DNA of 64,000 nucleotides. It comes from a virus. A program made the translations under genes and the position numbers. The stretch is from the IMG/VR virus record IMGVR_UViG_3300005253_000031, positions 26,883-90,882 of that record. One strand, 5' to 3'. Shown here in pieces: positions 3,166 through 19,258 of the stretch. Every line of letters starts with the position of its first letter. Position 1 is the first letter of the stretch. Below the pieces are notes generated by a model that worked only from the letters and a program-made list of their open reading frames with translations, searched no databases and was not told the origin of the DNA.

Positions 3166-3531
3166 TCATACCCTTTTAGCTAGTATGTCTTCCGATCCCG
3201 GCATCAGCAGAGTCTCTCCGTTAAAGCGCCATCGGCTCCCTTGCCACTCCGAAAAAATCACTTCGTCCCCCACGCTTACCCCCAACTTCTCTCCGGTCTT
3301 GGGATGAATGGCTCTAATGAATCCATAGGTGGTATTGCTCGTAAGAGGTCTTGCAATGGCTAATCCCGACTCGGTGGTGCTCGGTAGTTCTATTTCCTCC
3401 AGCAATACCCAATCCGGCAAGGGATGAATCTGCGCTGCGTCTGCGTCCACAGGAATAGGGGCCCAGTTGGGTCGCTCCCCCGCCCTACGCCTCTTTTTCT
3501 TCAGTGAGTTATAAGGTCTCCGGTTCATCAT
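3166..3531 (-). CDS. groES: GroES-like co-chaperonin, divergent copy with basic N-terminal extension
   Basis: IHPLPDWVLLE...TTESGLAI...VSVGDEVIFSEWQG...SEDILA matches the Cpn10 pattern. Start chosen at ATG 3531 behind GGAGG. Confidence 0.75.
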   Translation of the reverse strand: MMNRRPYNSLKKKRRRAGERPNWAPIPVDADAAQIHPLPDWVLLEEIELPSTTESGLAIARPLTSNTTYGFIRAIHPKTGEKLGVSVGDEVIFSEWQGSRWRFNGETLLMPGSEDILAKRV

Positions 3532-3856
3532 CGTTTTGCTTCCTCCGTTTAATCGCTCGGGCCTCAGCATCTTCATACCCGGATACGTCATCACTTAGTT
3601 CTCTATTACGATGTCGTAGACGGGCCGCTTGTAGTCGAGCCTTGTTCTCATCAGCTTCCATCTTCAACTTCCTGAAAACGGGCACCTCCGCCTCGATCTT
3701 ATGTTCAGACACTCTCTCCGAGCGTAATGCCTCAGCGAACTCCTCCTCTGTCATTGAGAGGAAATCCTTTCGAAACGCAACGGGATTCAATGTTGCACGT
3801 CGCTGTTGCAACGCTTGGAATCCCTTACCCGGCGGCTCACGTCTCCAGTTGTTCAT
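3509..3856 (-). CDS. Hypothetical protein
   Basis: ORF tiles with neighbours on the coding strand. Confidence 0.5.
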   Translation of the reverse strand: MNNWRREPPGKGFQALQQRRATLNPVAFRKDFLSMTEEEFAEALRSERVSEHKIEAEVPVFRKLKMEADENKARLQAARLRHRNRELSDDVSGYEDAEARAIKRRKQNDDEPETL

Positions 3857-10391: not shown

Positions 10392-11425
10392 TACAGCGGC
10401 TCCTCTGTGAATATTGTTTCATCGATCTGACTGTCGTTGGTCTCAACCAGCATCGTAAGCTCCTCTACATCAGCCGGATTCTCCTCGAAGTGCTCCCGCA
10501 ACTTAGCAGCCCCGTGAATGGTCTTTCCCTTCCAATGGGCATATCCACCCTTTCCAACGGGTATGATGTTCAAGTCCTTGGCCAGCTCCAACAGTCCAAC
10601 GAGAGTATCAATAGTCCCTGTAAACATAAACGGAAACTGGCACTCCTGCTCGGGCGGGGCCAGCTTATTCTTAATAGTACGTATATTCAAGTTATAGCCT
10701 ACCTTGCGGCCGTTATCCTCTACCCAGCCCGCTCGTCGAACCTTCAAGATGTACGAGGCGTAGAACTTCTGAGCCCGACCTCCAGGTATCTCGTCCGGGC
10801 TTCCATACACTATACCCAACTTGCTGCGTAGCTGGTTAGTACAGAGGATAAAGCTATCCCAGTTCCGGTTAGTCAGTTGCGCCAATCCTTCGCCAACCTT
10901 GCGAGCGTGCAAACCCATGACGTCCTTTTCCTCCAAGTCATGCTCCAGTCGGTACACGGGCACCAAGGCAGCTAAACTATCTATACCTATAAAATCCATG
11001 CCGTTCGCCGCCCAGTCGCAAGCTAGATCAAACGCCTGCTCGGTACTGGTGGGCCTAACCACAAGTAGTTCCGAGGTGTTCACTCCAGTCTTCTCGAACC
11101 ACTCGGCATCAAATGTCTTCTCGGGATCAATAAATCCGCAAACATAACCCTTTTGCTGAAAGGCCCTAATGGTCCATTGCATTATCAGAGTCTTCCCCAT
11201 TGACGCCTCACCAATCACCATTCCCATACGGCCTCGACGCCAGCCCCCCGCCAGTATGTCGTCCAGTCCCGGGATGTCGGTCTCAATGGTCTCCATATGA
11301 AGCTTGGGATCATCCCCCATTAGGCCCCGCTTCGCTCCAACTCGCGCCTTTGTAATATCCATAAGCTTGGCTCGACGTTCTGAGGCAGTGTCTAAAAGCT
11401 CGGATTCATCTTTCTTTCTACTCAT
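10391..11425 (-). CDS. recA: RecA-family recombinase
   Basis: GEASMGKT Walker A, FIDPEKTFD, IDSLAALVP, NQLRSKLGIVYGSPDEIPGGRAQKFYAS, KNKLAPP. Confidence 0.95.
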   Translation of the reverse strand: MSRKKDESELLDTASERRAKLMDITKARVGAKRGLMGDDPKLHMETIETDIPGLDDILAGGWRRGRMGMVIGEASMGKTLIMQWTIRAFQQKGYVCGFIDPEKTFDAEWFEKTGVNTSELLVVRPTSTEQAFDLACDWAANGMDFIGIDSLAALVPVYRLEHDLEEKDVMGLHARKVGEGLAQLTNRNWDSFILCTNQLRSKLGIVYGSPDEIPGGRAQKFYASYILKVRRAGWVEDNGRKVGYNLNIRTIKNKLAPPEQECQFPFMFTGTIDTLVGLLELAKDLNIIPVGKGGYAHWKGKTIHGAAKLREHFEENPADVEELTMLVETNDSQIDETIFTEEPL

Positions 11426-13407
11426 GCAGCTATCACCTCGATTTTCCTAGGCTCAGCCCAGCTAGGCTCTCCGATAGATACCTCAACGGGCAGGAATGTA
11501 CCAATCTGGCGTTCCTCCATAATACGCTTTAACTCCGGAATCACGAACTCCTCCTCCTCGTAGGGCACCTCAAAGATTATCTCGTCGTGCACCTGGACCA
11601 ACATTCGTGTCTTCAACCCATTCTCTAACAACCAGTCTCGAGCGGCCACCATACGGTTCTTAACGATGTCAGCACTGGAACCCTGTACTAAGTAGTTCAC
11701 TCCAATGTAGGCTCTGTCGGGATCAATCCAATAACGACGACCAAAGCGGTTCTTTATCCATCCGCGCACTTCCACGGTTTTACACACTAAGTCAATGAAG
11801 GTGTACGCCTTCGGAAAACGGGAGAAGTATTCCGCTTTATAGGTCTTGGCTTCCTCCAGCGTCTTCTGGATCTGAGAAGCCAGCTTTTTCATCCCGATGC
11901 CGTAGATCAATCCGAAGTTAATTGCCTTGGCCAGAGTACGATAGAAGGCCCATAAGTCACTACTCTCATCTACACTCCATACCGTCTTAGCGACGTGGCT
12001 GTGAAAGTCAAACTTCGGATCTTCTAACAAAGCCGACAATCCCTCGTCCTTAATGTAGTCGGAGAAAACCCGCATTTCCATCTGGCTGTAGTCAATCAAG
12101 ACCATCCTGCATCCCTCTCGAGGAATATACAGTCTACGAACTGAGACCAAGGCATCGTTAGCGTTATCGAACTTACTGCCTATGGCTTTTGTGCCCCCAT
12201 AAGTGAGTCCACCTGCCATGCTTCCCCCAACCTTCGTCATGTCCACGCCTTCCTTAGCTCCCATCGCCGCGGACAACGCTGCAAGCACCTCATCCGAGGT
12301 ATCATTACCACTTAAGTTGGAAATGTTCTTAGCAACGTTTTGCAAGTTGGGGTCCGAACACGCTAAGCGTCCAGTAACAGTACCCCAATTCTTAAATGAC
12401 GGATGCACCGCCCCGGGCCACTCTAGGATAGGCTCAAAGTAGGAGTTTAACAGCTTCTTAGTTCCCCTATACTCCAGTATCAATCCGGCGACGGGATGGT
12501 CTATAGCCATCATAGCGCCAACACCCCAGGACGGGGCCCCTGTCTTTATGGACTTAACGGTGGACTTCAATCCAAGATTTGCCATAACGTCGCCGAGTTG
12601 CTTCGAGCTACCAATGTTGAACGTAGTGTCCGTTTCGCGGTAAATATCCTGTTCAAGTTCCTTAATGCGCTCTCCCAGGGGCCCCACTTTGGACTCGGCG
12701 TATTCTTTGTCATAAGCGATTCCCAAGGACTCCATTTCCCATAGAGTCCGCGTCAACTCCTGCTCCTGCTCCCATATGTAGACTTGATTCGTATCCTCAA
12801 TCCGCTGTTCATAAATGTCAAGTAGGTCCTCAGCATACCCGCAATCATCTTCACAGTATGGCGCTATCTTGTCTATGGGAGCATAGTCAAAATGCTTGCT
12901 CCACTTGTTCTTCCTAAGATACGCCTTAAACTCCGCGTCATACGCCGCCTTATCCTCCCCCAGAAGCATCGCAGTCTGCCCCTTCAATGACAGGTCCGAA
13001 TACTTATCCTTGTTGCACATCCGCGCAGCCACTATTACGTCAATCAACTGGTGGTCTTCACGGGGACGAAATCCATCCTGCCACATCATGGCTAGATCAA
13101 ACTTGAGGTTCCATCCTATCAGCTTAGGTACCTTGTCGAACGCCTCCCATAGAGCTGGAAGCGTAACCAGTTCGAGGTTTTCCGCTACCAACTCATGCTC
13201 CGAGTCCTTGGCCCCGTTGCGATGTCGGTACGGAATATAGTACGACTTGAGATCTTCGCCCTCATGCCAAGCCAGTCCAATGCCGCAGAGTCGATCCTGC
13301 TTCCAGGGCTCTAGACCCGTGGTTTCCGTATCAATGACTACTCGCGGTTGTTGCGCTACTTCAACTAGAAGTTCCTGTAGCTCGACGGCGGTTTTAATAA
13401 CTGCCAT
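11422..13407 (-). CDS. polA: Family A DNA polymerase with 3'-5' exonuclease
   Basis: DTETTGL (ExoI), NLKFD (ExoII), TVTGRLACSDPNLQN, DYSQMEMRV (motif A), KAINFGLIYG (motif B), VHDE (motif C). Confidence 0.95.
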   Translation of the reverse strand: MAVIKTAVELQELLVEVAQQPRVVIDTETTGLEPWKQDRLCGIGLAWHEGEDLKSYYIPYRHRNGAKDSEHELVAENLELVTLPALWEAFDKVPKLIGWNLKFDLAMMWQDGFRPREDHQLIDVIVAARMCNKDKYSDLSLKGQTAMLLGEDKAAYDAEFKAYLRKNKWSKHFDYAPIDKIAPYCEDDCGYAEDLLDIYEQRIEDTNQVYIWEQEQELTRTLWEMESLGIAYDKEYAESKVGPLGERIKELEQDIYRETDTTFNIGSSKQLGDVMANLGLKSTVKSIKTGAPSWGVGAMMAIDHPVAGLILEYRGTKKLLNSYFEPILEWPGAVHPSFKNWGTVTGRLACSDPNLQNVAKNISNLSGNDTSDEVLAALSAAMGAKEGVDMTKVGGSMAGGLTYGGTKAIGSKFDNANDALVSVRRLYIPREGCRMVLIDYSQMEMRVFSDYIKDEGLSALLEDPKFDFHSHVAKTVWSVDESSDLWAFYRTLAKAINFGLIYGIGMKKLASQIQKTLEEAKTYKAEYFSRFPKAYTFIDLVCKTVEVRGWIKNRFGRRYWIDPDRAYIGVNYLVQGSSADIVKNRMVAARDWLLENGLKTRMLVQVHDEIIFEVPYEEEEFVIPELKRIMEERQIGTFLPVEVSIGEPSWAEPRKIEVIAA

Positions 13408-13813
13408 ATACTTTATCCCTTATCTCCGCGATACTGTCGTTTATATGCTGTTCAGTATTAACTATGTGAATCTGTTGTATGGCGGTATAACGGGTAAAAT
13501 ACTGGCCAAATAGATAATCTGCCCGGGACAAATCCTCCACATTATCATCATCCTTAAGTCTACAACGCTCCAACGCTGTCTCCGAACTACATCTCAACCA
13601 GACAACGTGGACGTCGTGCTCAACCATAATGGCCCTATTCATTACCTCATAGTCCACGTTCGTTCTGCTGTACAGTTGATTGTAGACCCAACAGGACGGG
13701 GTAAATCTCGCCACAGATAAGTCCGCATAGTTGGATAGCTTTCCCACTGGATGCAGCAAAGCGGTTTTCCCTGCTCCCGAGATGCCCTCCAAGATAATGA
13801 ACTTAGGCTTCAT
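13394..13813 (-). CDS. P-loop nucleoside monophosphate kinase (dNMP kinase-like)
   Basis: IILEGISGAGKT; ARFTPSCWVY in place of DRxxxS; lid-like ALERCRLK. Confidence 0.75.
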   Translation of the reverse strand: MKPKFIILEGISGAGKTALLHPVGKLSNYADLSVARFTPSCWVYNQLYSRTNVDYEVMNRAIMVEHDVHVVWLRCSSETALERCRLKDDDNVEDLSRADYLFGQYFTRYTAIQQIHIVNTEQHINDSIAEIRDKVYGSY

Positions 13814-14721
13814 AGGTTAACTCCTACGTTCCCACGGAATTTGTAATACTCCGTCAACGTAATGCGATCCCGTGCTTCCCACTCCGGATAAAAGCGCAGT
13901 AACTTCCTGTAGTCATGCCGCTGGTTTTGCTTGTAGTCTACGTCGAGGAGAAACCTCAGGCGACCATCAACAGCGATTATCTCATCTCGAGAAACGTCTA
14001 TGAAGCGTTGATTGTGCATGGCCCCAACGGTAATCCGGGAGCCCCAGGCAGGCTTCTCAATGATACGCTGCATCAGCCACACAAAGTCCGAGATATGCGT
14101 GTAGTCCTTAATCCACTGGGGATCAATCCGCGCCTCACAACTGGGAAAATCCCTGTCATTCAGCAACTTAACCAGCAAGTCGGGAATTGACTCCGAGCGG
14201 TTAGCTGCAAACGTTCCAATGTTTCCGTAGAGGAACACGGGCTCAATGGTCATGTACTTTCCAACACACTGCGCCTCCAGTAAATGCAGTTGTAGCATTT
14301 TAGTTATCCCGTAGGTTGTCTTAGGAGCCATCAGCGAATACTCGTCAATAGGCTTTGTACTTACATCCGAGTGATAGTACGCCGTTGTCCCAAAGTGAAT
14401 GAGGGGCGTCTGCGACTCGTTAGCCACCTTAATCACATTTCTCATCCCGGTGACGTTACTGCGGATGGCGCTCTCTACGTCCTGGTCCACGTAGTCGGAG
14501 CCCTTGCGTGCCGCCAAGTGAATGATCAAGTCGGGAGAGGTCTCAAACACAGTTTCAGATAGTTCCTCATAGTCAGCCACATCTACCGTAGCTCCGTTGT
14601 CGTACTCGCTCTGCCACCCCCCCGTATTAAACTCAGGGACTATGTCATATCCGACCCCTCTGAGATACCTACTCAGGTTCGTGCCAATAAAGCCGTGAAT
14701 CCCTGTAATGAAGATCTTCAT
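13810..14721 (-). CDS. NAD-dependent nucleotide-sugar epimerase/dehydratase (extended SDR)
   Basis: MKIFITGIHGFIG Rossmann motif, IIHLAA, YGITK (YxxxK), DYTHISD; start at 14721 behind GGAGG. Confidence 0.9.
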   Translation of the reverse strand: MKIFITGIHGFIGTNLSRYLRGVGYDIVPEFNTGGWQSEYDNGATVDVADYEELSETVFETSPDLIIHLAARKGSDYVDQDVESAIRSNVTGMRNVIKVANESQTPLIHFGTTAYYHSDVSTKPIDEYSLMAPKTTYGITKMLQLHLLEAQCVGKYMTIEPVFLYGNIGTFAANRSESIPDLLVKLLNDRDFPSCEARIDPQWIKDYTHISDFVWLMQRIIEKPAWGSRITVGAMHNQRFIDVSRDEIIAVDGRLRFLLDVDYKQNQRHDYRKLLRFYPEWEARDRITLTEYYKFRGNVGVNL

Positions 14722-14741
14722 GTTCCCTCCGTATGTATACA

Positions 14742-15161
14742 TTATATCGTCAAATACAGATGCCACGACCCAATTGTGGCCTCCAAGCAGTCCGCGCCAT
14801 ATCTCGCTGCTATCCTCCCCAGGAACCCAATGTCGCTGGGAAACCGCTTGAGATCTGATGAGCGGATATAGGCCAGCATTGTGGTTTGCGACGGGCGAAC
14901 CAGTAGCTGCATCATCGTGATGCAATCATGCGGGGAACTCCATGCCATATAGGCTTTGCGCGTTCCAGTTCCCCCATAAGACGTCTCTCGAAATACAGCG
15001 TCTCGGAACTGCTTTTCCTTCCGGTCGTAATACTCCGTCTCATCGTCTAAAACCGTATTTAGAGCAACACGTTCTATCTCTGACTTGTTCAGTGTTATGA
15101 CGTTGTTTCCAACGTGCTCTAGTACCAGTTTATCGGCGGAATCCCACTCTACTGACCACAT
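14742..15161 (-). CDS. Minimal thymidylate-synthase-fold enzyme, predicted dCMP-specific
   Basis: RKAY...HDCITMMQ (catalytic Cys), YIRSSD, FPSD (Asp at the position of TS Asn177), IGSWHLY. Confidence 0.75.
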   Translation of the reverse strand: MWSVEWDSADKLVLEHVGNNVITLNKSEIERVALNTVLDDETEYYDRKEKQFRDAVFRETSYGGTGTRKAYMAWSSPHDCITMMQLLVRPSQTTMLAYIRSSDLKRFPSDIGFLGRIAARYGADCLEATIGSWHLYLTI

Positions 15162-16130
15162 CTAGTCCTCCAGGAAGTAGGCTCGATCGCTCGAGTCCAA
15201 CTGGGCCAACGTTATCTCGGGGTCCGGCATCTCTTCGTTGCCCCGGGGAATGTGCATACCCAACTGGCCCATGATGGTCTCGCGATCCGTACAGGCTGTG
15301 TTAAACGTGTACTTGTCTCCAGTCTGCTCGCAGGGCCAACGTCCGGAACACTGGAACAAGTTGTGAAACGACTCCCCTATTTGATCCCCATGCTCCAAAC
15401 AGCGTCGAGCATGGTCGCTTGCCGGGCGCAGGTATGACGCCAACAGTGGGAAGCGAATCCTAATCTCACGCCTCATTAGCCATGCCGTGGCCACCGTATC
15501 TGCTTGCTCCGAAAACATGAGACGCTTGGACATGAAGTTCTGTAACGCCATGTAGTTGATGCCCATACTCCAGCGATGGCATGCGCTTATGGGCAGTACA
15601 GCCCGTGCATCCTGCCAGTTGGACTGGCCCGTCGCCAGCTCATCGACGTAGGCATCCTTAGCTACCTTACACGCCTGCATGAAACGTATGAGTCGATCCC
15701 CGTCCTGGTAAATGCTCTCCGGAACGCGGAACCCTATATTGCTGTGGTTGTTGTCCCGCCAGCCCATGGATCCAAACACCGCCCCAATCCTAGCGCGTGC
15801 AATCTGATCAAAGGCGCTGCGCGACGGCCCCGCTATCTCAAATGTAAAGCTGGGAGCTTCCATAGCGTTAGGCAGAGACTTACGATTTAACACCGCCTTA
15901 ACCACAAACAGCCTTGCCTCCGGCTCTGCTTCAGCCCACTTGTAGGTTTGGTACACTCCACCCCATGTAGACGTTGCAATGGTAAACATAGCCTTGTAAG
16001 GATTAGCCGGCCAGTCAATCAACCGGACGTCTATGTCCTCGACCCCCCGATGAAACTCGGTATCCGTATCGGGGGCCTCTTGGGGCATGGTCTTAATCCA
16101 CTCTCGTAACGCCCTGTCTTCCTCATTCAT
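15162..16130 (-). CDS. ThyX-like flavoprotein with non-canonical active site
   Basis: E.PSFTFEIAGPSRSAFDQIARAR, QDARAVLP, INYMALQNFMSKR; RHR motif is RAR; start MNEEDR at 16130. Confidence 0.8.
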   Translation of the reverse strand: MNEEDRALREWIKTMPQEAPDTDTEFHRGVEDIDVRLIDWPANPYKAMFTIATSTWGGVYQTYKWAEAEPEARLFVVKAVLNRKSLPNAMEAPSFTFEIAGPSRSAFDQIARARIGAVFGSMGWRDNNHSNIGFRVPESIYQDGDRLIRFMQACKVAKDAYVDELATGQSNWQDARAVLPISACHRWSMGINYMALQNFMSKRLMFSEQADTVATAWLMRREIRIRFPLLASYLRPASDHARRCLEHGDQIGESFHNLFQCSGRWPCEQTGDKYTFNTACTDRETIMGQLGMHIPRGNEEMPDPEITLAQLDSSDRAYFLED

Positions 16131-16260
16131 AGAACGTTTCTCCCTTCTCGGCCCTCTTAAACTGCTTACAGTCGCACTCTTTGCACTCTCCGGAGTATTC
16201 AACGTGAGTTCGACGTCTCTCCCCGCAGGTGCATATGTGATATCGTCCTCGTCTACTCAT
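16123..16260 (-). CDS. Small Zn-finger protein
   Basis: MSRRGRYHICTCGERRRTH...CKECDCKQF. Confidence 0.5.
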   Translation of the reverse strand: MSRRGRYHICTCGERRRTHVEYSGECKECDCKQFKRAEKGETFYE

Positions 16261-16273
16261 TGAGACTTCTCTC

Positions 16274-16615
16274 CTATATACTGAAGGATGTTCCGCATCC
16301 ACACATAGTTTTCGCATTGGGATTGTTGAAAATGAAACCCCTACCGTTTAAGCCCTCAGAATACTCTAGCGTAGTACCCGCCAAAAAGACATAGGACTTC
16401 TTATCAATGTATAAATTAACACTATGTCCCCGTATAACCTTGTCATCTGGGAGCGGAATCTCAGCGAGTTCAAGAACATACGTGAGACCAGCACATCCAC
16501 CACCCTTGACTCCAACTCGTAGATGGGCGTTGGGTTTTCCCTCCACCTCTCTAAACTGTTGAACACGGGCACTTGCCTCTTCGCTAATTGTAATCGTTAA
16601 AGGCTCAGGCATCAT
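16274..16615 (-). CDS. iscA: A-type Fe-S cluster carrier (IscA/HesB family)
   Basis: LRVGVKGGGCAGLTY and FNNPNAKTMCGCGTSF; ATG overlaps the upstream stop (ATGA). Confidence 0.93.
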   Translation of the reverse strand: MMPEPLTITISEEASARVQQFREVEGKPNAHLRVGVKGGGCAGLTYVLELAEIPLPDDKVIRGHSVNLYIDKKSYVFLAGTTLEYSEGLNGRGFIFNNPNAKTMCGCGTSFSI

Positions 16616-17601
16616 ACTGCTCCTATAGGTGAATCGTTGGGTCCCGTCGCATATCGCGTGTCGTCCCACTTCTTCAGTTTCTCATGACGTTCCCTAATAT
16701 ACGCAGTCACCTCACGGAGGTCTGTCTCCTGGGTAACGTAGAAGGCTGCTATACCCTGACTGCGAAAATCCGAGACGATTCCCTCATTGTCGTCAATCAC
16801 CACGTCAACCTTGGGCAGTATGTCCTTTAGATACACGAGCTTATCCGCCACGTCGACACAGTGTAGGTAATCGTACTCCAGGTTGTTAATCTCGAGCCAG
16901 ACCATGGTATCGTAAAACAGAGATGGATAGGTTTTCACCGGGCGGTTGGTAGCTATCACCACGAAGTAGTCTAGCTTCTGCAAAGTAAACAGTAGGTCCT
17001 TGGCATACGCCCGTACCCCCAAACGTCTCTTAGCCCCAGAGCGTCTGTATTCGTCTTTCCACTCTCCCCAAACCAGGGGCCTCTCTTGTTTAGCCGCAAG
17101 TATCTTGCGTATGTCCTCGTCCGGATATTCCTTCAACACCCACTCTCGGAAACAGTTGGGATACGTGTTCAGTACCCCGTCAATATCTACAACCGCAACT
17201 TTGGTAGCAGCTAGCAGTTGGTCGTGTACCTCCCCCTTCTCCTGTTTCCATCGAAAGTCAACTACCTTGGACTTCTCGACAAAAGCATTGTGTAGCTCTC
17301 CCTTTGAGATGCTCCACTGCTGCATCCAACCCCAGAGAAACTTCTGTAGGTCTACGAACTCCTCCATCATGGCGGCTCGATTGAACCCCGTCTTGGCCAC
17401 ACGGTGACGCTTCCAGTTGAACGTATTGAGAACCTCCGGAATCTCGCCCACTATTTGAAGCGCATACTCCTTGGACTCCTCTACACGTTCAGAGTCTTCC
17501 AACAAAGCAAGAGACTTCCCGTTAAAGTGCATACACACCATCTCGGCGAACTTTTGCTGTAGGTCCCACAGATCATTTAGATTTTCACTCACAGCAACCA
17601 C
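16612..17601 (-). CDS. Fusion of all-alpha (dimeric dUTPase/dCTPase-like) NTP pyrophosphatase and HAD 5'-nucleotidase-like domain
   Basis: N-terminal GEIPEVLNTFNWKRH...EEFVDLQKF; C-terminal VVDIDGVL, ATNRP, K, VIDD HAD motifs. Confidence 0.82.
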   Translation of the reverse strand: MVAVSENLNDLWDLQQKFAEMVCMHFNGKSLALLEDSERVEESKEYALQIVGEIPEVLNTFNWKRHRVAKTGFNRAAMMEEFVDLQKFLWGWMQQWSISKGELHNAFVEKSKVVDFRWKQEKGEVHDQLLAATKVAVVDIDGVLNTYPNCFREWVLKEYPDEDIRKILAAKQERPLVWGEWKDEYRRSGAKRRLGVRAYAKDLLFTLQKLDYFVVIATNRPVKTYPSLFYDTMVWLEINNLEYDYLHCVDVADKLVYLKDILPKVDVVIDDNEGIVSDFRSQGIAAFYVTQETDLREVTAYIRERHEKLKKWDDTRYATGPNDSPIGAV

Positions 17602-18368
17602 TCCAATACTCGATCATATACCATATGCGTCAAAATAGTTTTATCCCAAGCCCCGTATCGACCGGTAAACAGGAGACGCTCACTGTGTGCTGGTATGTTC
17701 CGACGACCCACCACTTTGGTAACCTCGAAGTAGTTATACTCAGGTCGCCGAACGGGAATATAGCCTGCCCTATACTCCATAGTAAATGTGCCCCAGATTG
17801 CCGAGCACCTGTACCAGTCACAATGCTCGTTTATGTTATACAAAATCCAGGCCTCGCCGTCAGGGGCTTTACCGCCCCTAATCCAAAGCGTAGCGGACTC
17901 GTAGTCCAATCCGGAGTAGAGGTGATGTAATGGAATGGTTGATATCACCCTATCGTACTCCCGCAGTAACTCCCCTATGTCGTGTAAATCCTCTATAGCT
18001 TTAGTCTGTACTTGCTTCCCGTACAAATCCCAAAGCATGTTGATGGCTGTTCCTGCATTGTATCCCTGTATCTCCGGAACCTGCCTGGGCCCCAGCACAC
18101 TGTTCTTTACCGACGGGATGCCATACACCTTTTGGCCATAAGCCAACGCCACATTCCTACTCAACATGCCCTCAGCACCCAACAGCCGTTGCTGAATTGA
18201 CGTAGGCGTTAATGGAAGGTTGCACGAGGCGTGTAGAAAAAACACTCCCGCGTTACGCTTACTCTTGTTAGGGTCGGCATCAAAGATATCTACGTAATTC
18301 CCACACTCCGACGCTGCGTGTGCTGCCATCATCCCAGACGGGCCTGCACCCAGTATGGCTATCCGCAT
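17589..18368 (-). CDS. FAD-dependent oxidoreductase, UDP-galactopyranose-mutase-like
   Basis: IAILGAGPSG dinucleotide fold, YDRVISTIPL, C-terminal FTGRYGAW (compare GRLAEY/GRFG of the UGM family). Confidence 0.7.
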   Translation of the reverse strand: MRIAILGAGPSGMMAAHAASECGNYVDIFDADPNKSKRNAGVFFLHASCNLPLTPTSIQQRLLGAEGMLSRNVALAYGQKVYGIPSVKNSVLGPRQVPEIQGYNAGTAINMLWDLYGKQVQTKAIEDLHDIGELLREYDRVISTIPLHHLYSGLDYESATLWIRGGKAPDGEAWILYNINEHCDWYRCSAIWGTFTMEYRAGYIPVRRPEYNYFEVTKVVGRRNIPAHSERLLFTGRYGAWDKTILTHMVYDRVLEWLL

Positions 18369-19258
18369 ATCTCAACCGCCTTCCTCAGATTTTCCGCGTA
18401 ACCCAATACGTCATTCGCGTGAAACCGTCGCATGTATTGAGGGTGCCATACCCCCGCGCTCCTAACGTCATAAGCTGCGAGAGCCGCCATAGCCTTTCCT
18501 CCTAAAGCCACTACTTTCGGATATCCTAATGCCGCCCACTTATCGTATAGCGGGTAAGGAACACCATCGTCGTCATAGGCGTTGCTCACGTGCACTCTAT
18601 CCCAATTGAACCCCGCCACCTTAAACGCCTTAAATAGGTGCTTGCCGCAACCCCCAGAAAGCGTGGTGTTCGGCAGGAAATTCTTGTCCTTGAGGTTGTG
18701 CTGCTCTCCCACAAACCACACCTCCGGCATTACGGTTCCCATGCCATCATCAGTAATAGTCACCGGCTCATACGTAATAAAGTTACGAATTCTGTCTACC
18801 ATCACGTTAAGATCTGCGCTCCTCACTAGGGTCTTAGTCAAATGAGAAAACTCAAAACCATAACGCAGAAACTGGCTAACGCCCCTCCAATCCACCACAC
18901 CTCGATACCTCTCCTGAAAACGGTCGAGCGTATGTTGATTATGGCCATCTAACAGGAACAGGTAGGCGTCATGAGCTCGTAGCCAACCCTCTAACACCCA
19001 AATCTCGAACTGAGTAAGTCCTTCCTCACCGCGAACCAACGGGCCATAGGCCAACTCGCTCAAGTGTAAGCGGTCTACAACTACGTTCATATCTGGAAAA
19101 TCTACGAGAGCCTGTTGCATCTGAGACAGCCACTCAAATAGACGGTTTTTAGCGATGTGCGGAAAGTGCAGAGACCTCCCGCCGTCCAGTTCTACCAACC
19201 GCTGGGCGATGGTGGACTTACCAATCCCGTCGATACCTTCAAGGATGATTATCGCCAT
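18359..19258 (-). CDS. Fusion of thymidylate-kinase-like dNMP kinase and uracil-DNA-glycosylase-superfamily domain
   Basis: ILEGIDGIGKST, VVDRLHLSELAYG; then VWFVGEQHN, VHVSNA, KVVALGGKA, VWHPQY. Confidence 0.78.
   Translation of the reverse strand: MAIIILEGIDGIGKSTIAQRLVELDGGRSLHFPHIAKNRLFEWLSQMQQALVDFPDMNVVVDRLHLSELAYGPLVRGEEGLTQFEIWVLEGWLRAHDAYLFLLDGHNQHTLDRFQERYRGVVDWRGVSQFLRYGFEFSHLTKTLVRSADLNVMVDRIRNFITYEPVTITDDGMGTVMPEVWFVGEQHNLKDKNFLPNTTLSGGCGKHLFKAFKVAGFNWDRVHVSNAYDDDGVPYPLYDKWAALGYPKVVALGGKAMAALAAYDVRSAGVWHPQYMRRFHANDVLGYAENLRKAVEICG

What the first reader, a model, noticed from the sequence alone, without database searches (positions are those of the whole stretch)
14742..15161. 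139-aa thymidylate-synthase homologue with the dCMP-specificity Asp
Seen: YIRSSDLKRFPSDIGFL aligns to ThyA YQRSCDVFLGLPFNIASY with Asp in place of Asn177; the catalytic Cys (HDC) and the HLY motif are retained. Established: Asn at this position selects dUMP, while Asp selects dCMP (T4 dCMP hydroxymethylase). The protein is about half the size of ThyA and seems to lack N-terminal folate-binding elements. Inference: it acts on dCMP or a derivative with a non-folate co-substrate.
Basis: partly seen in the sequence, partly recalled or inferred. Interest (0 to 1): 0.75.

Follow-up and report, generated by a model that had tools for sequence, protein, structure and literature searches.

The report
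Half-size cytosine-type thymidylate-synthase-fold enzyme
An uncultured marine-sediment phage encodes a 139-residue enzyme that is a stripped-down thymidylate synthase built to grip and attack dCMP, so the phage probably makes an altered cytosine nucleotide for its DNA, by chemistry that sequence alone cannot yet name.

Summary
ORF 14742-15161 (minus strand) is a real gene with its own GGAGGA ribosome site, abutting the stop codon of a ThyX-like gene. The single sequence matches no Pfam, PHROG, NCBIfam or PDB entry. An exhaustive search found about 50 stand-alone relatives of 127-176 residues with nine invariant residues. Their profile hits T4 dCMP hydroxymethylase first, and hhalign to ThyA/gp42/RB69 gp48 gives 93% probability. 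The model (pLDDT 96) superposes on E. coli ThyA residues 14-212 (Z 10.2, 136 residues).

Residue matches are C80=C146, R68=R126, R100/S101=R166/S167, H134=H207 and D110=N177. D110 is Asp in all 50 relatives. ThyA's first 13 residues, last 52 residues and about 60 internal residues have no counterpart.

Best reading: it fills the gp42-like step of a pre-replicative pathway (dNTP pyrophosphatase-phosphatase, this enzyme, dNMP kinase, PolA), with Cys80 activating C5 of dCMP. The co-substrate is open. Asp103 fails the D169N signature of flavin-dependent 5-hydroxy-dCMP synthases, and the NDP-sugar idea has no support.

This scan has noted kinase-fused mini-TS domains on other DNA; no paper describing either form was found. 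I class it as a new variant of a known kind, interest about 0.6.

The parts
14742..15161 (-). CDS of the 139-aa minimal TS-fold protein (ORF139)
   Evidence: ORF list. About 50 stand-alone relatives. AF2 pLDDT 96.1. TS fold at Z 9.3-12.3. hhalign to ThyA at 93% probability.
15166..15171 (-). Shine-Dalgarno GGAGGA, 4 nt before the ATG. It lies inside the end of the ThyX-like gene, whose TAG (15164-15162) abuts the ATG.
   Evidence: Read directly from the sequence.
14922..14924 (-). Codon of Cys80, the predicted nucleophile (= ThyA C146, T4 gp42 C148)
   Evidence: Invariant in 50/50. Aligned by hhalign, HMMER and BLASTP.
14832..14834 (-). Codon of Asp110 (= ThyA N177, T4 gp42 D179), the base-specificity residue
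   Evidence: Invariant Asp in 50/50. Alignments.
14859..14864 (-). Codons of Arg100-Ser101 (= ThyA R166-S167), which bind the 5'-phosphate
   Evidence: Invariant in 50/50. Alignments.
14958..14960 (-). Codon of Arg68 (= ThyA R126, which in ThyA is donated to the partner subunit's phosphate site)
   Evidence: Invariant in 50/50. hhalign.
14760..14762 (-). Codon of His134 (= ThyA H207, a sugar 3'-OH contact)
   Evidence: Invariant in 50/50. hhalign.
15027..15119 (-). Stretch holding the family-specific invariant residues Glu15 (15119-15117) and Tyr45 (15029-15027), plus the mostly conserved Glu41. Their ThyA counterparts are unresolved.
   Evidence: Invariance. Only a weak local alignment suggests E41/Y45 match T4 E60/Y64. 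The global hhalign has low confidence in this region.
15162..16130 (-). Upstream neighbour: ThyX-like flavoprotein with a deviant motif (RAR...SMGWR where canonical ThyX has RHR...SxR). The ORF list extends it to a TTG at 16202; the ATG at 16130 is the likelier start.
   Evidence: Pfam Thy1 at 3.9e-18. Alignments A6 and A8. 51% identical to the homologue in the syntenic relative.
13810..14721 (-). Downstream neighbour: SDR NAD-dependent epimerase/dehydratase or reductase
   Evidence: Pfam Epimerase at 3.2e-25. PDB hits to UDP-glucose 4-epimerase and dTDP-4-dehydrorhamnose reductase.
13394..13813 (-). Small P-loop dNMP kinase (139 aa), directly before PolA
   Evidence: phrog_761 thymidylate kinase at 2.3e-11. 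Pfam Thymidylate_kin at 1.3e-4, below the cut-off.
16612..17601 (-). dNTP pyrophosphatase-like N-half fused to a HAD 5'-nucleotidase-like C-half
   Evidence: phrog_415 and phrog_420. The 33%-identical homologue in L026 hits dUTPase_2 and NT5C.
17589..18368 (-). 259-aa FAD/NAD Rossmann protein, conserved alongside the mini-TS in the relative
   Evidence: Pfam Rossmann hits and phrog_8720. 28% identical homologue in L026. Atlas neighbours have a DAO/amine-oxidase-like fold.
11422..13407 (-). Family A DNA polymerase, which closes the module
   Evidence: The 38%-identical homologue in L026 hits DNA_pol_A at 1.6e-68.

Best explanation
ORF139 is an active, minimal thymidylate-synthase-fold enzyme acting on a cytosine 5'-mononucleotide, most likely dCMP. 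It fills the place that gp42 fills in T4.

Proposed pathway: a phage pyrophosphatase/phosphatase reshapes the dNTP pool. ORF139 binds dCMP through Arg68, Arg100, Ser101 (phosphate), His134 (3'-OH) and Asp110 (N3/N4 of cytosine). Cys80 adds to C6, and the resulting C5 carbanion captures an electrophile. Elimination of Cys80 releases a 5-substituted dCMP. The adjacent small dNMP kinase then phosphorylates that product for incorporation by the phage PolA.

What is shown: the fold, the residue equivalences, their invariance and the gene neighbourhood.

What is inferred: catalysis, deoxyribose rather than ribose, and the pathway order.

The electrophile is not determined. My ranking is:
- a one-carbon unit from methylene-tetrahydrofolate held in a much reduced, open site, giving 5-hydroxymethyl- or 5-methyl-dCMP: about 35%
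- flavin hydroperoxide giving 5-hydroxy-dCMP: about 25%
- a group handed over by a partner flavoprotein: about 10%
- something else: about 30%
For: Fold:
- AF2 pLDDT 96.1.
- VIA gives Z 12.3 to MilA-hmCMP, 10.9 and 10.6 to phage HY126 dCMP hydroxylase (9iqu, 9iqc), 10.2 to E. coli ThyA (136 of 139 residues aligned at 3.0 A, ThyA 14-212), and 10.1-10.2 to T4 gp42.
- 396 chains score Z >= 8, the count of Foldseek hits at E <= 0.001, and every one of the 50 listed is a TS-family chain. In the Foldseek-independent search the seven top chains (Z 9.3-10.6) are all TS-fold and the next fold scores Z 6.5.

Sequence:
- The family profile hits T4 dCMP hydroxymethylase first (E 0.0028), followed by several weaker, non-significant (E 0.1-1.2) ThyA hits among unrelated chains.
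- hhalign to ThyA/gp42/RB69 gp48 gives 93% probability, E 3e-7.
- 2 of 50 members reach PF00303 (best 2.7e-9).
- BLASTP to gp42 gives E 9e-4.

Active site:
- R68, C80, R100, S101, D110, S132 and H134 are invariant in 50 diverged sequences.
- Asp at the N177 position is the known dCMP determinant (PMC13326640 section 24).

Context:
- The gene has its own SD and abuts the ThyX-like stop codon.
- The module holds a pyrophosphatase-HAD fusion, ThyX-like gene, mini-TS, SDR, dNMP kinase and PolA.
- In a relative whose PolA is only 38% identical, the mini-TS again lies within 5.7 kb of homologues of the FAD protein, the pyrophosphatase-nucleotidase, the ThyX-like gene and PolA.
- The phage genome has no other TS-family gene.

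Asp103 at the D169 position and an acidic Asp79 next to the Cys lean towards gp42-like one-carbon chemistry.
Against: - No biochemical data exist for any family member.
- The protein has no counterpart to ThyA's C-terminal 52 residues. It very probably also lacks the W80/W83/Y94 segment, so a normal folate site cannot exist.
- The D169-equivalent varies in the family (D 25, S 16, N 7), which is odd for a conserved folate contact.
- Y209 is not conserved (Y in 15/50), and an R21 equivalent is not evident.
- Context is known for only one other family member, and that phage is syntenic kin, so the shared neighbours may reflect ancestry rather than function.
- No dNMP kinase was found in that relative's 17-kb fragments.
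- The source is marine sediment. If the sediment is anoxic, that would disfavour the O2-dependent option.
Confidence: 0.65

Rival explanations
1. It is specifically a flavin- and O2-dependent dCMP 5-hydroxylase, a miniature of HY126 AfhB / RB69 gp48. It would make 5-hydroxy-dCMP as an anchor for later glycosylation.
For: - The AfhB structures 9iqu and 9iqc are among the top structural matches (Z 10.9 and 10.6, 134 residues aligned).
- These enzymes show that the TS fold can swap folate for a loosely bound flavin (PMC13326640 sections 24, 29).
- An FAD-Rossmann gene is conserved in the module in both phages.
- An SDR sugar-nucleotide enzyme sits next door.
- 7 of 50 family members carry Asn at the D169 position.
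Against: - ORF139 has Asp103, not Asn, at the D169 position, so the diagnostic signature is not met (PMC13326640 section 28).
- The structural scores are tied with ordinary ThyA, so they do not discriminate.
- No GT1 or GT2 glycosyltransferase is detectable in the complete genome.
- The SDR gene is absent from the relative's fragments.
- The habitat is sediment, which may be anoxic.
Confidence: 0.2
2. The mini-TS has no cofactor pocket of its own and works as the nucleotide-activating half of a two-protein enzyme. The deviant ThyX-like flavoprotein encoded immediately upstream would deliver the group added to C5.
For: - The stop and start codons abut, TAG then ATG.
- The ThyX-like protein carries a deviant nucleotide-binding signature (RAR...SMGWR). 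The relative shares it (RSR...SMGWR) at 51% identity, higher than PolA at 38%.
- Both genes recur in the relative.
- The mini-TS lacks ThyA's folate-closing parts.
Against: - In the relative the two genes are not adjacent; DUF1599, PolA and UDG genes lie between them.
- The ThyX-like protein keeps most ThyX fold motifs and Arg residues and may simply be a working thymidylate synthase.
- Earlier notes of this scan describe kinase-fused mini-TS domains without mention of ThyX (unverified).
- Co-occurrence in two syntenic kin counts as a single observation.
Confidence: 0.08
3. It is not a C5-transferase. It could be a nucleotide-binding or regulatory remnant of a TS. Or it could use the Cys-C6 adduct for other chemistry, such as hydrolytic deamination of dCMP or C5 proton exchange.
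For: - Half of the TS fold, including the usual cofactor walls, is missing.
- 5,6-dihydrocytosine adducts are known to deaminate readily (general chemistry of cytosine-C5 methyltransferases).
- The phage has no zinc dCMP deaminase.
Against: - The nucleophile, the phosphate clamp and the specificity Asp are all invariant over 50 sequences at 20-39% identity, which argues for catalysis rather than mere binding.
- No precedent exists for a TS-fold deaminase.
- A dedicated dNMP kinase nearby suggests that a novel dNMP is produced.
Confidence: 0.07

Closest known systems
T4 gp42 deoxycytidylate 5-hydroxymethyltransferase (PDB 1b49, 1b5d, 6a9a, 6l18)
   Same: - Best sequence-profile match in the PDB (E 0.0028).
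- Same fold (Z 9.6-10.2, 128-131 residues aligned).
- Cys148, Arg168-Ser169, Asp179 and His216 all have invariant counterparts (C80, R100-S101, D110, H134).
- The Asp at the ThyA D169 position is kept.
- The genomic logic is the same: dNTPase, TS-like enzyme and dNMP kinase beside the polymerase.
   Different: - 139 versus 246 residues; the model covers gp42 residues 14/17-221 with about 75 residues deleted.
- No Pfam PF00303 hit.
- The tetrahydrofolate-binding walls are probably absent.
- The acidic residue sits at -1 from the Cys (Asp79) rather than at -3.
- The product is unknown.
Flavin/O2-dependent 5-hydroxy-dCMP synthases: phage HY126 AfhB (PDB 9iqu, 9iqc), RB69 gp48, DLP3 gp80 (PMC13326640)
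   Same: - TS fold with Asp at the N177 position.
- Top-tier structural match (Z 10.6-10.9, 134 residues aligned).
- These enzymes are a precedent for a TS-fold enzyme that abandoned folate.
   Different: - The D169N diagnostic is not met (Asp103).
- Those enzymes are full size (chains of 217-234 residues in 9iqu/9iqc; 238 aa for RB69 gp48 from L020:7498-8214).
- The L143E equivalent cannot be placed because the loop is shortened.
- Flavin binding is untested.
E. coli thymidylate synthase ThyA (PDB 2tsc, 1tys)
   Same: - 136 of 139 residues superpose at 2.9-3.0 A on ThyA 14-212 (Z 10.1-10.2).
- hhalign gives 93% probability.
- C146, R126, R166, S167, D169, Q151, H207 and Y209 all have counterparts in ORF139.
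   Different: - Asp replaces Asn177.
- There is no counterpart for residues 1-13 or 213-264, nor for about 60 internal residues.
- D205 becomes an invariant Ser.
- R127 is Lys here, and R/Q/K across the family.
MilA CMP hydroxymethylase of mildiomycin biosynthesis (PDB 5b6e, 5jnh)
   Same: - Highest structural score (Z 12.3, 133 residues aligned, rmsd 2.8).
- It is a cytosine-nucleotide-specific TS homologue with Asp at the N177 position (PMC13326640 section 24).
   Different: - MilA acts on the ribonucleotide CMP in antibiotic biosynthesis and has 318 residues.
- ORF139 sits in a phage DNA-replication module.
Kinase-fused mini-TS domains noted earlier in this scan, and the 304-aa viral clusters in the ESM Atlas
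   Same: - The Atlas's nearest structural neighbours of ORF139 are viral 304-aa proteins (TM 0.77 by query, 126 residues aligned, clusters of 228 and 83 members).
- Earlier notes describe about 300-aa dNMP-kinase fusions to a half-size, Asp-bearing TS fold in marine phages.
   Different: - ORF139 and its roughly 50 relatives stand alone (127-176 aa), with the kinase as a separate gene two positions away.
- The 2-sequence profile search did not retrieve the fused forms.
- I could not obtain their sequences, so kinship is a lead rather than a test.

Membership tests
Thymidylate synthase / dCMP hydroxymethylase superfamily (TS fold; Pfam PF00303) | TS alpha/beta fold | tested here: met
   AF2 pLDDT 96.1. 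In the Foldseek-independent search the seven top chains (Z 9.3-10.6) are all TS-fold and the next fold scores Z 6.5. 396 of Foldseek's top chains score Z >= 8, and all 50 listed are TS-family. 126-136 of 139 residues align.
Thymidylate synthase / dCMP hydroxymethylase superfamily (TS fold; Pfam PF00303) | Score above the PF00303 gathering threshold | tested here: not met
   ORF139 has no Pfam hit. PF00303 finds nothing in the phage genome at E <= 10. Only 2 of 50 family members match. Homology rests on profile-profile comparison and structure.
Thymidylate synthase / dCMP hydroxymethylase superfamily (TS fold; Pfam PF00303) | Catalytic Cys (ThyA C146) plus the phosphate-binding R166/S167 and R126 | tested here: met
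   C80, R100, S101 and R68 are aligned by hhalign and HMMER and are invariant in 50/50.
Thymidylate synthase / dCMP hydroxymethylase superfamily (TS fold; Pfam PF00303) | Folate-enclosing elements: the C-terminal segment (ThyA 213-264) and the I79/W80/W83 helix | tested here: not met
   The model and the global hhalign end at ThyA 212/213. ORF139 residues 1-62 must cover ThyA 14-120, so about 45 residues are missing there. Loss of W80/W83/Y94 specifically is inferred, because no residue-level superposition was available.
Thymidylate synthase / dCMP hydroxymethylase superfamily (TS fold; Pfam PF00303) | Obligate homodimer with Arg126' reaching into the partner's active site | not testable with these tools
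   The invariant Arg68 aligned with R126 is consistent with a shared-site dimer but does not show one. This needs SEC-MALS or a solved structure.
dCMP/CMP-specific branch (T4 gp42, MilA, dCMP methylases) | Asp in place of ThyA Asn177 | tested here: met
   D110 aligns with N177 and with gp42 D179. It is Asp in 50/50 members.
T4 gp42-type dCMP hydroxymethylase | Acidic residue at the ThyA L143 position (water activation) and a tetrahydrofolate site | tested here: inconclusive
   The loop before the Cys is shortened, so L143 falls in a gap. Asp79 lies at -1, where the family shows E 14, H 10, W 6, N 4, D 3. Folate binding cannot be judged from sequence.
Flavin-dependent 5-hydroxy-dCMP synthase (AfhB / RB69 gp48) | Asn at the ThyA D169 position (D169N diagnostic, PMC13326640) | tested here: not met
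   ORF139 has Asp103. Family counts are D 25, S 16, N 7, L 1, E 1.
Flavin-dependent 5-hydroxy-dCMP synthase (AfhB / RB69 gp48) | Bound flavin and O2-dependent hydroxylation | not testable with these tools
   This requires purified protein. The structural similarity to 9iqu/9iqc (Z 10.6-10.9) is tied with folate-dependent ThyA.

The most novel reading that the evidence does not exclude
The 139-residue enzyme is a bare nucleotide-activating core with no cofactor pocket of its own. The group added to C5 of dCMP would come from a partner flavoprotein. Candidates are the deviant ThyX-like protein encoded immediately upstream (51% conserved in the relative, with RAR/RSR...SMGWR where ThyX has RHR...SxR) and the conserved 250-aa FAD protein. 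The result would be a cytosine modification made by a two-protein route not described so far.
Probability: 0.1. Interest if true: 0.85.

Novelty: new variant of a known kind. Interest (0 to 1): 0.6.

Why it matters
Every characterised enzyme of the thymidylate-synthase superfamily has more than 200 residues and encloses its cofactor. This holds for ThyA, the dCMP and dUMP hydroxymethylases, MilA, and the 5-hydroxy-dCMP synthases described in 2025-2026. A 139-residue version that keeps only the nucleotide clamp, the nucleophile and the cytosine-specifying Asp would be the smallest TS-type catalyst known.

It would define what the fold minimally needs. It also raises the question of how the second substrate is held, which is the same question left open for the folate-to-flavin switch in PMC13326640.

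In practice the family marks uncultured phages that probably carry modified cytosine. Such DNA can resist restriction enzymes and CRISPR, so the family is a source of new DNA chemistry and of compact enzymes for making modified nucleotides. The family is unannotated: it is labelled hypothetical where it is named at all, and three members tested found nothing in 50,697 deposited phage genomes.

Tried and rejected
**Single-sequence searches, all empty**
- Pfam, PHROGs, NCBIfam and PDB phmmer gave no meaningful hit. The PDB near-hits (snake C-type lectins, CSN6) are noise at E > 0.1.

**Phage and contig collections**
- tblastn of ORF139, P0013 and P0020 against 50,697 phage records found nothing.
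- blastn of 8 kb around the gene found nothing.
- The search for related loci in IMG/VR with ORF139, P0003, P0014, the ThyX-like protein, PolA and alignment A7 found no relatives.
- A degenerate SDLGF-16-IGSxH DNA pattern gave 0 hits in viral contigs and 16 chance hits in metagenome contigs, none of them coding for a relative.
- Genome contigs with A7 found nothing.

- The word-index search for longer forms (309-2000 aa) found none. The 'near' search with A2 returned only 7 proteins. Fused forms of about 300 aa were therefore not properly tested by sequence.

**Predictions that gave no answer**
- Complex prediction with two copies of ORF139 returned no verdict (score 0.29, mark 0.42). This is not evidence either way.
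- AF2 of the 259-aa FAD protein from a 2-row alignment failed (pLDDT 39), so no fold search was run on it.

**Other checks**
- The look-up of sequencing runs listed no RNA holder.
- The global hhalign of the N-terminal 62 residues has low confidence, so the ThyA equivalents of Glu15, Glu41 and Tyr45 stay open.
- The reading of window 18359-19258 as a UDG fusion is not supported here. It shows no similarity to the relative's UDG and only a weak kinase hit in Pfam.
- The long repetitive proteins P0005 and P0042 in the HMM search were set aside as low-complexity matches.
- Literature searches for a truncated or minimal TS fold found no description.
Full report
**Gene and setting**

The window belongs to a complete 90,882-bp phage record with direct terminal repeats, assembled from marine-sediment metagenomes. 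In the part I annotated (window 1-29,000 and the 27 kb upstream of it), the genes assigned a function lie on the minus strand. ORF139 occupies 14742-15161.
- Its ATG directly follows the TAG of the upstream ThyX-like gene, and a GGAGGA lies 4 nt upstream.
- Its TAA is followed 20 nt later by the ATG (14721) of an SDR epimerase/reductase gene with its own GGAGGG.
- The 371-aa TTG-started ORF that overlaps ORF139 in the mechanical list is therefore an over-extension of the SDR gene.

**The single sequence is an orphan; the family is not**

- Pfam, PHROGs, NCBIfam and phmmer against the PDB gave nothing for ORF139.
- PF00303 found nothing anywhere in the phage genome.
- The word-index search found only the protein itself and one 88% identical copy.
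- An exhaustive HMMER scan of 1.84 billion representatives found 52 proteins at E <= 0.001. Fifty of these have 54-176 residues; one is a 54-aa fragment.
- ORF139 plus 49 of these proteins, aligned (A2), share 20-39% identity with ORF139 apart from the 88% copy, yet nine columns are invariant: E15, Y45, R68, C80, R100, S101, D110, S132 and H134.
- The members checked come from ENA, Logan and JGI metagenome contigs. Most clusters are singletons, and none carries a name other than 'hypothetical protein'.
- Three members gave no tblastn hit in 50,697 deposited phage genomes.

**Homology to thymidylate synthase**

*By sequence*
- The A2 profile searched against the PDB puts T4 dCMP hydroxymethylase first (E 0.0028), followed by several weaker, non-significant thymidylate synthase hits (E 0.1-1.2) among unrelated chains. 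The printed alignment places C80 on Cys148, R100-S101 on Arg168-Ser169, D110 on Asp179 and H134 on His216.
- Two of the 50 members reach Pfam PF00303 on their own (best E 2.7e-9).
- I fetched E. coli thyA, T4 gene 42 and RB69 ORF048c from annotated records and aligned them (A5). hhalign of A2 against A5 gives 93% probability and E 3e-7 over ORF139 63-138 against ThyA 121-213.
- That alignment gives these equivalences: R68=R126, K69=R127, C80=C146, Q85=Q151, R100=R166, S101=S167, D103=D169, D110=N177, S132=D205, H134=H207 and Y136=Y209.

*By structure*
- AlphaFold2 on A2 gave pLDDT 96.1 and pTM 0.89.
- Foldseek against the PDB returned at least 396 hits at E <= 0.001, and every one listed is a TS, a dCMP hydroxymethylase or MilA.
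- VIA-align without a Foldseek pre-filter gave seven TS-family chains at Z 9.3-10.6 and then an unrelated fold at Z 6.5.
- The second look gave Z 12.3 for MilA with hmCMP, and 10.9 and 10.6 for the HY126 dCMP hydroxylase AfhB. E. coli ThyA scored 10.1-10.2, with 136 of 139 residues aligned at 2.9-3.0 A on ThyA 14-212.
- BFVD returned only full-size viral TS homologues.

**What is missing**

- A global hhalign also spans ThyA 14-213.
- ThyA helix A (1-13) and the last 52 residues have no counterpart. In ThyA that C-terminal segment folds over the folate; this is textbook knowledge, not tested here.
- ORF139 63-138 (76 residues) covers ThyA 121-213 (93 residues). ORF139 1-62 must cover ThyA 14-120 (107 residues).
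- So about 45 residues are lost in the stretch that carries I79, W80, W83 and Y94.
- Which residues exactly are gone is inferred. The N-terminal alignment has low confidence, and model coordinates could not be exported for a residue-level superposition.
- The roles of the family-specific invariants Glu15 and Tyr45, and of Glu41 (E in 42/50), stay open for the same reason. A weak local alignment suggests that E41 and Y45 correspond to gp42 E60 and Y64, and thus to ThyA E58 and F62.

**Substrate**

- Asp at the Asn177 position is the established switch from dUMP to dCMP (PMC13326640 section 24; L. casei N229D-dCMP structures listed). It is Asp in 50/50 family members.
- The invariant Arg/Ser/Arg set is the 5'-phosphate clamp, and His134 is the 3'-OH contact.
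- A cytosine 5'-mononucleotide is therefore well supported.
- Deoxyribose is inferred from the setting, a DNA replication module.

**Co-substrate**

PMC13326640 (sections 24, 28, 29) shows that RB69 gp48, DLP3 gp80 and others are TS homologues that hydroxylate dCMP with a loosely bound flavin and O2. They are diagnosed by N177D, an acidic L143 and D169N.
- ORF139 has Asp103 at the D169 position, so that diagnostic fails.
- Across the family the position reads D 25, S 16, N 7, and I found no correlation with other active-site columns.
- The retained Asp103 and the acidic Asp79 next to the Cys lean towards gp42-like one-carbon chemistry.
- The loss of the folate walls and the variability of position 169 lean the other way.
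- The structural scores do not separate folate-dependent from flavin-dependent relatives.
- I therefore leave the electrophile open and give ranked odds in the best explanation.

**Neighbourhood**

Reading in the direction of transcription, the module contains:
- a 299-aa protein with a weak thymidylate-kinase N-terminus (18359-19258)
- a 259-aa FAD/NAD Rossmann protein (17589-18368)
- a pyrophosphatase-HAD fusion (16612-17601)
- an IscA-type protein (16274-16669)
- the ThyX-like gene
- ORF139
- the SDR gene
- a 139-aa dNMP kinase (13394-13813)
- PolA, then RecA

A nucleotide pyrophosphatase, a TS-like enzyme and a dedicated dNMP kinase beside the polymerase is the T4 arrangement of gp56, gp42 and gp1 (textbook knowledge). 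The complete genome has no dCMP deaminase, DHFR, or GT1/GT2 glycosyltransferase detectable with Pfam models.

**One independent context**

After many failed attempts, family member P0054 was located on two IMG/VR fragments, L025 and L026.
- The gene order there is DnaB, primase, a 239-aa protein, a 251-aa FAD-Rossmann protein, a dUTPase_2-NT5C fusion, a ThyX-like gene, DUF1599 ('nucleotide modification associated domain 1'), PolA, a UDG-superfamily gene, the mini-TS, RecA and DUF559. The UDG gene overlaps the mini-TS start by 13 nt.
- BLASTP shows it is a syntenic distant relative. Identities are PolA 38%, RecA 35%, mini-TS 30%, FAD protein 28%, pyrophosphatase fusion 33% and ThyX-like 51%.
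- The ThyX-like proteins of both phages share a deviant signature, RAR/RSR...SMGWR, where two annotated phage ThyX proteins have RHR...S/TxR.
- The SDR gene, IscA and any Thymidylate_kin hit are absent from those fragments. The fragments are only 17-21% of a genome.
- The mini-TS thus travels with the FAD protein, the pyrophosphatase-nucleotidase and the ThyX-like gene. Because the two phages are kin, this counts as one observation.
- It weakens the NDP-sugar idea. It keeps alive, at low odds, the idea that a flavoprotein partner supplies the group to be added.

**Relation to earlier notes of this scan**

- A word search of the scan's notes returned several follow-up reports on other genomes. 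They describe proteins of about 300 aa that fuse a dNMP kinase to a half-size, Asp-bearing TS fold.
- I could not obtain those sequences.
- The ESM Atlas lists viral 304-aa clusters (228 and 83 members) as the nearest structural neighbours of ORF139, at TM 0.77 over 126 residues, which fits those notes.
- If the two forms are kin, the fusion is independent support for the enzyme-then-kinase order proposed here. That is a lead, not a test.

**Verdict**

- ORF139 is a stand-alone member of an unannotated family of minimal TS-fold enzymes.
- I class it as a new variant of a known kind, with moderate to high interest.

Noticed in passing
window 15162-16130 (-); L026:5845-6795: The ThyX-like flavoprotein has a deviant signature: RAR...SMGWR here and RSR...SMGWR in the relative, where two annotated phage ThyX proteins have RHR...S/TxR. 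It also has a Cys-bearing C-terminal extension that is partly shared with Aeromonas phage Gekk3-15 ThyX. At 51% identity it is the best-conserved protein between the two phages, ahead of PolA at 38%.
   Followed up: partly
L026:8987-9550 and L026:6785-7075: In the syntenic relative, a UDG-superfamily gene (PF03167, 2.4e-15) overlaps the mini-TS start by 13 nt. A DUF1599 'nucleotide modification associated domain 1' gene sits between the ThyX-like gene and PolA.
   Followed up: no
window 18359-19258 (-): This 299-aa protein gives only a weak thymidylate-kinase P-loop hit in Pfam and shows no similarity to the relative's UDG protein.
   Followed up: partly
window 16612-17601 (-); L026:4991-5830: A pyrophosphatase-HAD fusion is conserved in both phages (33% identity). 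The relative's copy hits dUTPase_2 and NT5C (pyrimidine 5'-deoxynucleotidase). That suggests two-step removal of a canonical pyrimidine dNTP, but which one is unknown.
   Followed up: partly
window 17589-18368 (-): The 259-aa FAD/NAD Rossmann protein (phrog_8720) belongs to several viral clusters of about 250 aa, each with roughly 70-150 members. The fold resembles D-amino-acid oxidase or amine oxidase. My own AF2 model failed (pLDDT 39).
   Followed up: partly
L021 (genome 1-20000) and L022 (genome 18001-27500): Outside the window the phage carries an RNA-repair set (RtcB, RlaP, an RNA ligase), a 706-aa N6/N4 DNA methylase fused to a NUDIX domain, a second NT5C-type deoxynucleotidase, RusA and an RNase T-like exonuclease.
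   Followed up: no
window 3166-3594 (-): A phage-encoded GroES-like co-chaperonin (Cpn10, 9e-13) with an N-terminal extension of about 55 residues.
   Followed up: no
window 13810-14925 (-): The mechanical ORF list extends the SDR gene to a TTG at 14925, overlapping ORF139 by 184 nt. The real start is the ATG at 14721, behind a GGAGGG.
   Followed up: yes
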